In this document: positions 13,126-14,648 of the stretch, piece by piece
Layout of the letters: each line of letters starts with the position of its first letter
Position numbering within the stretch: position 1 is the first letter of the stretch
Source: a virus
Lineage: Duplodnaviria > Heunggongvirae > Uroviricota > Caudoviricetes
Direction: 5' to 3' (one strand)
IMG/VR virus record: IMGVR_UViG_2563366924_000006
Location: 1 to 28,035 of that record
Length of the DNA: 28,035 bases
The notes under the pieces: generated by a model
Seen by the model: only the letters and a program-made list of their open reading frames with translations
Database searches by the model: none
Told to the model about the DNA's origin: nothing
Translations under genes and position numbers: made by a program

Positions 13126-14648
13126 CAGGCATTACCTCCCTGTAAACTCAAATCCAGCATGACAGATGCCTTGATACCTTTCGGACATTCGTAGGTGCGC
13201 ACGATGATGTAAATTTCCACCTGCGTTTTGCTGCGCCAGAGGATTTGTACATCACCGTCCTGTGGTGGCATAACTTCACCGGGGAATGTGACACCCTGAA
13301 TGCGCATCGTGCGGGACATTTCACGCATCGGGCCGGCGAAATACTGCTGATGTGATGCAATGCTGGTCGGCGTGGAGTTCAGCGAACGGTCAGCAATTTT
13401 TGCGATGGCCAGCAAACGGACACGGCGACACACTTTGTCAACGACACGTTTGTTTTCAATTGCCTGGTAATCACCGCCCTCAGCATCAAGCGTGATGCCA
13501 TCTGACCAGTAATAGCCGTCATAATCCGGATACCACATCGGCACACTGAATCGCGCCTTACTGAGTGCCTGCAGGGTATCCAGCCCCAGCTCGTTACCGT
13601 CTTTATCAACGGGTTTATTGCCGGTACTGTTCAGCCCGACAACTGGCCCGGTTTTTACCCGCGCCGGACTGTCTGCGATGGTCACTGCCCGGTTGCACAG
13701 ACGACCGACATAAACACCCGGCTCCGCGCCAAACAGACGAGGGATAAGCGTAATGCCGCCATCAGCGATACTGTCCTGATATGCCGTGATGCGGGCCAGA
13801 TAATCGGCCCAGGATTCCGTTTTCAACACACCCTGAACTGAAAGATAAACGTGCACCCAGCGTTGCCATTTCGCCAGCACATCTGCAGCCAGCGCACTGG
13901 CCTCAGTGATATCTGATTTTGCGGCAATATCATCACAGAGCAACACACCTTCAACCGAGCAGACCGCCTGTGCAGCCTTCACCGCATCAGCAAATGTCAC
14001 AGATGAATCAGACTCATCAAGTACCCAGACATACGCGAACCAGTTCTGGCCAGCATTACGCATCGCGGCCTGCAGGTCAGTTTTCAGGGGACTTTCTTCA
14101 GTTCCCAGCAGCTTGTCAAAGTCAGTCTGCGTATTAACCGGCATCACTTTCCCTGCATTGGGCACAGAGACCCCTGCCTGCCCCTGGGTGACTGTGGCAC
14201 CTGCAACCGTTGTCAGTTTTAAAAGAGCGCCAAGGTCAGTCCCTGATGCCCCAGCAGTCGCAACCGTCAGCGTTGCAGCTGCGCCGGTATCGAGCGTGGT
14301 AACCACAAAGCGACTGCCTGCATCGCTCCATGTCACCGTTGCCAGCGTGCTCAGCTTTGCCGATACCGCCGTGGCGACCTCAGCAAGCGTTGTCACTGCT
14401 GACAAATCAAGACCACTGACGTTTTTTAACGTGCCGTTAATGGTCAGTTTGAATGCGCCATCAGTAACAGCAGTGAATTTGGCAATGGCTTTATCGCCCG
14501 TTGCCAGTACACCGCCACTCAGCACGGCAGCAGTTGCAGCACCGCCGGTGGCTTTGAGCGAACCGACAAACAACATGACGCGCTCAATTTCGTTCGTTTC
14601 GCCCTGCAGCTGATTCAGCTGATTGACGTCTACAGTTGGCCAGGCCAT
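13125..14648 (-). CDS. Tail sheath protein
   Basis: 507 aa, between tail completion genes and the tube gene; Ala/Thr/Gly-rich N-terminal region followed by a larger core domain; assignment by position and size. Confidence 0.6.
   Translation of the reverse strand: MAWPTVDVNQLNQLQGETNEIERVMLFVGSLKATGGAATAAVLSGGVLATGDKAIAKFTAVTDGAFKLTINGTLKNVSGLDLSAVTTLAEVATAVSAKLSTLATVTWSDAGSRFVVTTLDTGAAATLTVATAGASGTDLGALLKLTTVAGATVTQGQAGVSVPNAGKVMPVNTQTDFDKLLGTEESPLKTDLQAAMRNAGQNWFAYVWVLDESDSSVTFADAVKAAQAVCSVEGVLLCDDIAAKSDITEASALAADVLAKWQRWVHVYLSVQGVLKTESWADYLARITAYQDSIADGGITLIPRLFGAEPGVYVGRLCNRAVTIADSPARVKTGPVVGLNSTGNKPVDKDGNELGLDTLQALSKARFSVPMWYPDYDGYYWSDGITLDAEGGDYQAIENKRVVDKVCRRVRLLAIAKIADRSLNSTPTSIASHQQYFAGPMREMSRTMRIQGVTFPGEVMPPQDGDVQILWRSKTQVEIYIIVRTYECPKGIKASVMLDLSLQGGNA

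What the first reader, a model, noticed from the sequence alone, without database searches (positions are those of the whole stretch)
14138..14558. Ala/Thr/Gly-rich low-complexity N-terminal region in the putative sheath protein
About 140 residues near the N-terminus are dominated by A/T/G/V/L repeats (for example TGAAATLTVATAGASGTDLGALLKLTTVAGATV), unlike the compact P2 FI sheath. This may be an extra surface-exposed (Ig-like or decoration) domain. The composition also creates a long spurious antisense ORF (13906-14613).
Basis: seen in the sequence. Interest (0 to 1): 0.25.

Follow-up and report, generated by a model that had tools for sequence, protein, structure and literature searches.

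The report
Borrowed outer domain in phage sheath
The Ala/Thr/Gly-rich stretch is a properly folded extra domain, already seen on the outside of the tail sheaths of phages XM1 and E217, that a small group of HP1-like enterobacterial prophages has spliced into their otherwise compact sheath protein; it is an uncommon but unsurprising piece of domain shuffling.

Summary
Residues 31-170 of the 507-aa protein (13125-14648, minus strand) are 72% A/T/G/V/L, the most biased 140-aa window in the prophage. The stretch is not repetitive or disordered.

It is a clean 131-residue insertion (residues 34-164, nt 14157-14549) into an HP1-type tail sheath (Pfam DUF2586). It lies in the turn between the first two core beta-strands.

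About 12 protein clusters (Buttiauxella, Citrobacter) carry it. More than 1000 relatives and all 76 isolated phages with this sheath type lack it. A core-only tree supports a single gain. dN/dS is about 0.11-0.17, so it is maintained by selection.

The same module occurs in DUF3383 sheaths, sometimes in tandem, in FI-type sheaths and in some enzyme-containing proteins. Its function is untested and is probably an accessory outer-surface layer.

The antisense ORF 13906-14613 is spurious.

This is a new variant of a known kind, of low to moderate interest.

The parts
13125..14648 (-). Tail sheath gene, 507 aa. It has an HP1-type (DUF2586) core interrupted by an inserted domain.
   Evidence: ORF. 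Pfam PF10758 matches at E 2.5e-128 in two stretches, and PF11863 at E 3e-25. PHROG 907 'tail sheath'. Foldseek of the AF2 model hits solved sheaths: XM1 7e-15, Milano, Bas63, PVC, 3hxl.
14550..14648 (-). Residues 1-33: the N-terminal arm plus the first core beta-strand (25-31). This part is colinear with the short-form sheaths.
   Evidence: Alignment A1; AF2 secondary structure.
14157..14549 (-). Residues 34-164: the inserted accessory domain. It is the 'InD' of XM1 gp6, equivalent to domain A of E217 gp31 and the 'flexible domain' of Pa193 gp32, and it has a FliD-D3-like alpha/beta fold. This is the A/T/G-rich stretch of the finding.
13125..14156 (-). Residues 165-507 plus the stop codon: the rest of the HP1-type sheath core (alpha-beta-alpha domain and conserved C-terminal domain). 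It is 60-64% identical to the 375-aa short forms.
13906..14613 (+). Antisense ORF of 235 aa. It is a spurious by-product of the sense-strand composition.
   Evidence: Synonymous-codon shuffles give a longest antisense open stretch of 177 +/- 36 codons, and 7.5% of shuffles reach the observed 254. The frame is broken by stops in homologues P0004 and P0007. No Pfam family. The sense frame is under purifying selection.
12667..13125 (-). Tail tube gene (HP1 Orf24 family), immediately downstream. Context that identifies the sheath.
   Evidence: Pfam PF10772 E 2e-54; PHROG 1182.
14658..15359 (-). Tail completion gene (gpS-like / Neck1), immediately upstream. Context.
   Evidence: Pfam PF05069; PHROG 26. 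The same gene order occurs in long-form and short-form prophages.

Best explanation
The A/T/G-rich stretch is a folded accessory domain of about 130 residues with an alpha/beta fold. It belongs to the same domain family as the insertion domain (InD) of Vibrio phage XM1 sheath gp6, domain A of Pseudomonas phage E217 gp31 and the flexible domain of Pa193 gp32.

The domain was inserted once into the turn between the first two core beta-strands of an HP1-type (DUF2586) tail sheath. This happened in the ancestor of a small clade of enterobacterial prophages (Buttiauxella, Citrobacter).

The following is inferred from the solved XM1, E217 and Pa193 tails. In the assembled tail each sheath subunit would carry this domain as a third, outermost layer. 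The domain would move as a rigid body when the sheath contracts and take no part in the N-arm/C-arm handshake that drives contraction.

The domain is dispensable for the basic machine, because sister phages work without it. It is nevertheless kept by purifying selection, so it does something.

My best guess for its role is weak multivalent adhesion to surface or extracellular polymers, at about 0.35 conditional probability. Lattice stabilisation comes next at about 0.3. Neither role has been tested.
For: Shown by tool results:
- Long forms carry a clean 131-aa insertion relative to the 375-aa short forms, with conserved flanks.
- The DUF2586 profile is split into two stretches, and the insert hits PF11863. 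A later Pfam release names that family E217_gp31_N.
- The insert matches solved XM1 gp6 residues 96-227 by sequence (E 1e-10) and Pa193 gp32 (E 3e-3).
- AF2 gives pLDDT 88-95 across residues 40-165, with ordered beta-alpha-beta elements.
- dN/dS of the insert is 0.11-0.17, against 0.10-0.13 for the core. Its dN is 1.5-3 times higher than the core's, as expected for an exposed domain.
- On core-only trees the long forms are monophyletic (100/100 bootstraps). The outgroups phiO18P, HP1, Pmp6, BIBS67, Vibrio phages and K139 all lack the insert.
- All 76 phage records with this sheath type lack the insert.
- The A/T/G/V/L bias is a trait of the domain family: 0.56 in the InD against 0.43 in the rest of the protein across 48 DUF3383 sheaths.

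From papers:
- XM1's InD is inserted into the N-terminal domain and points outward (PMC10457771).
- E217 domain A is absent from the two-domain pyocin sheath (PMC10329688).
- The outward domain III is the variable part of sheaths (PMC11915804).

Hints towards adhesion:
- The module occurs in tandem arrays of 2 to about 10 copies.
- It is fused to alginate-lyase or GDSL-esterase domains in other proteins.
Against: - No function of this domain has been tested in any phage. XM1, E217 and Pa193 were described structurally only.
- I could not read the model coordinates, so the outward position in this protein is inferred from homologues, not measured.
- The insertion point here comes after about 10 core residues. 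In Pa193 and E217 it comes after about 68. The geometry therefore need not be identical.
- Profile-profile comparison of the two sheath cores was not significant.
- No obvious ligand-binding signature was found. The invariant residues are mostly G, D, T, L and A.
- The genomic context of the enzyme-fused homologues could not be retrieved.
Confidence: 0.85

Rival explanations
1. The stretch is a disordered, low-complexity linker or spacer with no defined structure.
For: The composition is strongly biased: 72% A/T/G/V/L and entropy 3.37 bits.
Against: pLDDT is 88-95 with regular strands and helices. The stretch is homologous to a solved globular domain. There are no repeats. dN/dS is 0.11-0.17, and 39 columns are invariant across 12 homologues that diverge down to 49% identity.
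Confidence: 0.02
2. It is an Ig-like decoration domain of the Hoc/BIG type on the sheath surface.
For: Ig-like add-ons are common on phage structural proteins (general knowledge). The location is consistent with a surface decoration.
Confidence: 0.02
3. The domain is ancestral to HP1-type sheaths and was lost in the 375-aa forms. The long form would then be the primitive state.
For: DUF3383, FI-type and DUF2586 sheaths all have members with this module. The long|short split is a single bipartition, so an unrooted tree alone cannot give the direction.
Against: When rooted with distant family members, the long clade is nested. phiO18P, HP1/Pmp6, Pseudomonas BIBS67, the Vibrio/Pseudoalteromonas phages and K139 all lack the insert, so loss would need four or more independent events against one gain. 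An exhaustive HMMER search finds only one 50%-identity cluster that combines DUF2586 with the module.
Confidence: 0.05
4. The domain is structural rather than adhesive. Lateral contacts between neighbouring outer domains would stiffen or stabilise the extended sheath, or tune the contraction trigger.
For: In E217 the sheath bodies make few contacts in the extended state and many in the contracted state (PMC10329688). An extra outer layer could add such contacts. Purifying selection is compatible with this role.
Against: Pa193 describes the equivalent region as a 'flexible domain', which argues against a rigid brace. Sister phages manage without it. Tandem multiplication up to about 10 copies and fusion to enzymes are hard to explain by lattice contacts.
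Confidence: 0.3
5. The long gene is an assembly or annotation artefact, for example a chimeric contig or a fused ORF.
For: None beyond its rarity.
Against: The exact protein occurs in 45 index blocks, including two with contigs longer than 1 Mb. Twelve clusters at 58-91% identity keep the same architecture and reading frame. Synteny is identical across them. Selection acts on the sense frame.
Confidence: 0.01

Closest known systems
Tail sheath of Haemophilus phage HP1 (orf23) and relatives (HP2, K139, phiO18P, ESSI-2). Pfam PF10758 DUF2586, PHROG 907.
   Same: The core sequence matches: 51% identity to HP1 over residues 159-504 and 60-64% to enterobacterial short forms. The gene order is the same (gpL, R, S, sheath, HP1-Orf24 tube, holin). 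The N-terminal arm and C-terminal domain are also shared.
   Different: All of these are about 370-376 aa and lack residues 34-164. None of the 76 phage records carries the insert.
Insertion domain (InD) of Vibrio phage XM1 sheath gp6 (PDB 7KH1/7KJK), domain A of Pseudomonas phage E217 gp31 (8ENV) and the 'flexible domain' of Pa193 gp32 (9B42). These correspond to the N-terminal part of Pfam PF11863 (DUF3383 / E217_gp31_N).
   Different: The host sheath core belongs to a different family. The DUF3383 HMM does not match this protein once the insert is removed (E 0.07 among 7 sequences), and hhalign is not significant. The insertion point comes after about 10 core residues, against about 68 in Pa193 and E217.
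D2-D3 domains of the flagellar cap protein FliD (e.g. 5H5V, 5H5W, 6KTY), and flagellin outer domains.
   Different: No sequence similarity was detected. The context is entirely different. Homology is not established.
Variable outer domains of other contractile sheaths (T4 gp18 domains I/II, Mu gp39 domain III).
   Different: The sequence families differ. There is no Pfam match to Phage_sheath_1/1C or Gp18_domIII_N, even at E<=10.

Membership tests
HP1-type tail sheath (Pfam PF10758 DUF2586 / PHROG 907) | Profile match above the curated threshold | tested here: met
   428.9 bits against a cutoff of 26.4; PHROG 907 E 6e-139.
HP1-type tail sheath (Pfam PF10758 DUF2586 / PHROG 907) | Gene lies between the tail-completion genes (R, S) and the HP1 Orf24-type tube gene | tested here: met
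   Window 15332-15838 (R), 14658-15359 (S), 13125-14648 (sheath) and 12667-13125 (tube). The short-form locus L006 has the same order.
HP1-type tail sheath (Pfam PF10758 DUF2586 / PHROG 907) | Contractile-sheath fold | tested here: met
   Foldseek of the AF2 model hits XM1 at 7e-15, then Milano, Bas63, 7-7-1, PVC and 3hxl sheaths. Parts of the C-terminal domain have low pLDDT.
HP1-type tail sheath (Pfam PF10758 DUF2586 / PHROG 907) | Compact, uninterrupted architecture of about 375 aa with two domains | tested here: not met
   The profile is matched in two stretches separated by a 131-aa insert. The protein is therefore a variant of the family, not a typical member.
HP1-type tail sheath (Pfam PF10758 DUF2586 / PHROG 907) | Polymerises round the tube and contracts | not testable with these tools
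   Needs virion purification and electron microscopy.
XM1 InD / E217 gp31 domain A module (N-terminal part of Pfam PF11863) | Sequence match to the family profile and to solved members over the domain | tested here: met
   PF11863 gives 89.5 bits against a cutoff of 34.9. 7kh1_A6 residues 96-227 match at E 1e-10. A locally built DUF3383 HMM gives 140.7 bits, with maximal posterior probability across residues 33-165.
XM1 InD / E217 gp31 domain A module (N-terminal part of Pfam PF11863) | Same three-dimensional fold | tested here: met
XM1 InD / E217 gp31 domain A module (N-terminal part of Pfam PF11863) | Located on the outer surface of the assembled sheath | not testable with these tools
   Inferred from XM1, E217, Pa193 and Mu. 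Model coordinates and multimer models were not available.
DUF3383-type sheath (whole-protein PF11863, e.g. XM1 gp6, E217 gp31) | DUF3383 sheath core flanking the insertion domain | tested here: not met
P2 FI / T4 gp18-type sheath (Pfam Phage_sheath_1, Phage_sheath_1C, Gp18_domIII_N) | Match to these profiles | tested here: not met
   No hit even at E<=10. FI-type proteins that carry the same module (P0128, P0265) do hit these profiles.
Ig-like phage decoration domains | Beta-sandwich Ig-like fold or an Ig-type profile match | tested here: not met
   The predicted fold is alpha/beta. No Ig-like domains appear among the significant fold matches. No Ig Pfam hit.
FliD D3 domain | Homology to the flagellar cap D3 domain | tested here: inconclusive

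The most novel reading that the evidence does not exclude
The InD would be a promiscuous module that can be inserted into other proteins and that moves between sequence-unrelated sheath families. It is found in DUF3383 sheaths, in FI/gp18-type sheaths and, here, in an HP1-type sheath at what appears to be a new insertion site. It multiplies in tandem up to about 10 copies per subunit and is also fused to polysaccharide- or lipid-active enzyme domains. On this reading it is a general 'tail-sheath adhesin', the tail counterpart of Ig-like capsid decorations, giving hundreds of weak binding sites along the tail for host-surface or matrix polymers.
Probability: 0.2. Interest if true: 0.5.

Novelty: new variant of a known kind. 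Interest (0 to 1): 0.28.

Why it matters
Variable outward domains on contractile sheaths are well known, and this particular domain has been solved in XM1, E217 and Pa193, so the finding is not a surprise in kind.

What is new is the combination. A compact HP1-type sheath has acquired the outer domain of a different sheath family. This combination is absent from all 76 isolated phages with this sheath type, and I found no description of it in the searchable literature.

It gives a natural with/without pair: 60-64% identical cores in syntenic prophages of related hosts. Such a pair could be used to ask what sheath outer domains are for, a question no structural paper has answered.

It also corrects the XM1 paper's statement that the InD is unique to XM1. 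The exhaustive search found 485 clusters at 50% identity that carry the module.

Tried and rejected
1. The search for homologous proteins with the 140-aa segment alone returned only two fragments. The word index probably copes poorly with this composition. The exhaustive HMMER search replaced it.
2. Profile-profile comparison of the DUF2586 and DUF3383 cores was meant to decide whether the insertion site is structurally the same. It was not significant with the first alignment. It was still not significant after adding nine diverse phage sheaths (HP1, K139, phiO18P and others). The question stays open.
3. The afdb50 fold library was not available. BFVD was used instead.
PHROGs gave almost nothing for the non-sheath proteins.
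5. Megablast against phage and E. coli genomes found no close DNA relative of the window. The source is a non-E. coli enterobacterium, and the closest protein is 91% identical, from Buttiauxella gaviniae.
6. The disorder, repeat-array, Ig-like, ancestral-loss and assembly-artefact readings were considered and rejected (see the rival explanations).
7. The antisense ORF was considered as a real gene and rejected.

Full report
**The observation**

The finding lies inside the 507-aa ORF at 13125-14648 on the minus strand. Coordinates 14138-14558 correspond to residues 31-170.

The composition claim is correct. A, T, G, L and V make up 72% of the stretch, against about 41% in the rest of the protein. 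Entropy is 3.37 against 4.13 bits. Of 4,486 sliding 140-aa windows from 21 genes of the window, the top-ranked all lie in this region (the five highest begin at residues 24-29), at 0.729. The maximum elsewhere is 0.571, with mean 0.408 and sd 0.063.

The stretch is not a repeat array. Tandem Repeats Finder finds nothing there, and a self-blastp gives only the identity match.

**What the protein is**

- It matches Pfam DUF2586 (PF10758) at E 2.5e-128 and PHROG 907 'tail sheath' at E 6e-139.
- Its neighbours are gpL, gpR, a gpS-like tail-completion protein, an HP1 Orf24-family tube protein and a holin.
- The rest of the window encodes an HP1/P2-like baseplate, fibres, tape measure, capsid and terminase.
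- tblastn places it with the sheaths of HP1 and HP2 (51% identity), phiO18P, ESSI-2, K139 and others.
- It gives no hit to the P2 FI/T4 gp18 families even at E<=10. The right compact comparator is therefore the HP1 sheath, not P2 FI.

**The stretch is an insertion**

The DUF2586 profile is matched in two pieces: residues about 1-30, and residues 157-501 aligned to profile positions 31-386.

Twelve long homologues (506-509 aa) were aligned with the short forms (370-382 aa, most 374-376). The alignment shows one clean gap of 131 residues, window residues 34-164 (nt 14157-14549), with conserved flanks (LFVG... | ...NAGKxxPVNTQTDFD).

In the AF2 model the flanks are beta-strands 25-31 and 168-172. 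From this I infer that the domain sits in the turn of a beta-hairpin of the short form.

**The insert is a folded, known domain**

- AF2 gives pLDDT 88-95 across residues 40-165, with ordered strands and two main helices.
- The insert alone hits Pfam PF11863 (DUF3383) at E 3e-25, on profile positions 85 onwards. A later Pfam release calls this family E217_gp31_N.
- phmmer against PDB sequences aligns residues 37-171 to residues 96-227 of XM1 sheath gp6 (7KH1/7KJK, E 1e-10). It also matches Pa193 gp32 (9B42, E 3e-3).
- In BFVD, six of the seven matches at E<1e-3 are sheath-sized proteins (472-649 aa), three of them named tail sheath or sheath tube.
- A DUF3383 HMM built here aligns residues 33-165 at maximal posterior probability. 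It shows that the A/T/G-rich pattern is the family consensus.
- In 48 single-copy DUF3383 sheaths the domain is 56% A/T/G/V/L, against 43% for the rest of the protein.

The literature describes this domain in structural terms only.
- In XM1 it is the 'insertion domain (InD)'. It is inserted in the N-terminal domain, oriented outward and FliD-D3-like, and the authors called it unique to XM1 (PMC10457771).
- In E217 it is 'domain A', which is missing from the pyocin sheath (PMC10329688).
- In Pa193 it is the 'flexible domain', residues 91-210 (PMC11456595).
- The Mu paper states the general rule: sheath domains I and II are conserved, and the outward domain III is variable (PMC11915804).

No function has been assigned to the domain. 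It is not Ig-like.

**Distribution and direction of change**

Only about 12 clusters at 90% identity have the long architecture. The named ones come from Buttiauxella and Citrobacter. More than 1,000 DUF2586 hits are short.

The exact window protein is present in 45 index blocks, including two with contigs longer than 1 Mb. It is therefore not an assembly artefact.

Long-form and short-form prophages are syntenic.

An exhaustive HMMER search of 1.84 billion representatives with the 140-aa segment found 485 clusters at E<=1e-3. Only one of them combines the module with DUF2586.

None of the 76 phage records with this sheath type has the insert. In phage genomes the insert alone hits only DUF3383 sheaths, from Bordetella, Ralstonia, Burkholderia, Acinetobacter and E. 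coli phage BUCT618.

On core-only trees the long forms are monophyletic (100/100 bootstraps). They are nested among lineages that lack the insert (phiO18P, HP1/Pmp6, BIBS67, Vibrio phages, K139). One gain is far more parsimonious than four or more losses.

**Selection**

For the unsaturated comparisons (window against P0001, P0004 and P0007), dN/dS of the insert is 0.11-0.17 against 0.10-0.13 for the core. The insert's dN is 1.5-3 times higher. The domain is therefore maintained by selection and evolves somewhat faster than the core, as expected for an exposed accessory domain.

In one pair (window against P0004) the insert's dS is also higher, 1.13 against 0.49. This hints at exchange of the module among these prophages. 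I did not follow it up.

**Other architectures carrying the module**

- Single copy at about residues 89-215 of roughly 495-aa DUF3383 sheaths. This is the majority.
- Tandem arrays of 2 to about 10 copies in DUF3383 sheaths of up to 1,130 aa (P0123, P0124, P0126, P0127 and others).
- Two copies in an FI/gp18-type sheath from Leclercia (P0128), plus another FI-type protein (P0265).
- Proteins with alginate-lyase (P0257), GDSL-esterase (P0143) or phrog_3287 virion-protein (P0197) regions.

Their genomic contexts could not be fetched.

**How it most likely works**

Shown:
- It is an added, folded domain homologous to the outer domain of solved sheaths.
- It was acquired once.
- It is under purifying selection.

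Inferred:
- It forms a third, outermost layer on every sheath subunit.
- It moves as a rigid body during contraction.
- It is not part of the contraction machinery, because sister phages lack it.

Its role is unknown. Tandem multiplication, fusion to polymer-active enzymes and the kinship of its fold to surface-exposed flagellar domains lead me to favour weak multivalent adhesion (about 0.35). Lattice stabilisation comes next (about 0.3).

**An open point**

In Pa193 and E217 about 68 core residues precede the domain. Here only about 10 do. The two cores are of similar length, so the insertion loop is probably different. Profile-profile comparison of the cores was not significant, and I could not inspect coordinates.

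**The antisense ORF**

The ORF at 13906-14613 (+) is real in the sequence but spurious as a gene.
- Synonymous-codon shuffles of the sheath gene give a longest antisense open stretch of 177 +/- 36 codons, and 7.5% of shuffles reach the observed 254.
- The frame is interrupted in homologues P0004 and P0007.
- It has no Pfam match.
- The sense frame carries the selection signal.

**Verdict**

This is a new variant of a known kind, an HP1-type sheath carrying the XM1/E217-type outer domain. I found no paper describing it. Interest is low to moderate.

Noticed in passing
P0123 (987 aa), P0124 (1130 aa), P0126, P0127, P0144 (proteins): DUF3383-type sheath proteins carry the same module in tandem arrays of 2 to about 10 full or partial copies. 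This doubles the size of the sheath subunit, and such tails would be unusually thick.
   Followed up: partly
P0128 (649 aa, Leclercia adecarboxylata) and P0265: P2 FI/T4 gp18-type sheaths carry the module: two copies in P0128 (Gp18_domIII_N, then the module twice, then Phage_sheath_1 and 1C) and one in P0265. The module therefore occurs in three sequence-distinct sheath families.
   Followed up: partly
P0257 (1143 aa), P0143 (774 aa), P0197 (636 aa): The module also occurs next to an alginate-lyase domain, a GDSL lipase/esterase domain and a phrog_3287 'virion structural protein' region.
   Followed up: partly
window 14157-14549 compared with L004 (P0004 gene): Synonymous divergence of the insert (dS 1.13) is more than twice that of the core (0.49) for window against P0004. 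This suggests the module has been exchanged by recombination among long-form prophages.
   Followed up: no
window residues 136-146 (GTDLGALLKLT) and 174-184 (QTDFDKLLGTE) of the sheath: The C-terminal element of the inserted domain and the core element just after the insertion share a T-D-[LF]-x-x-L-L motif. The DUF3383 HMM aligns short-form sheaths at this point, though not significantly. This may be coincidence or a shared structural element.
   Followed up: no
database names: Several DUF2586 sheath proteins are named 'topoisomerase IA' or 'topoisomerase' in public records (Buttiauxella gaviniae, Kluyvera georgiana, Yersinia phage vB_YenM_324, Salmonella phage SI7). This looks like a propagated misannotation.
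   Followed up: no
window 1-1000 and 25001-27000: These stretches are AT-rich (GC 0.40-0.42), against 0.48-0.58 across the structural genes. They may be prophage borders or accessory (moron) regions.
   Followed up: no
window 22377-25031 (-): An 884-aa ORF has Toprim and DUF5906 regions and is primase-like. It is probably the phage replication protein.
   Followed up: no
window 14607-14624: A perfect 9-bp direct repeat, CAGCTGATT x2, encodes the NQLNQL motif of the sheath N-terminal arm. The motif is conserved in homologues, so it is probably trivial.
   Followed up: no
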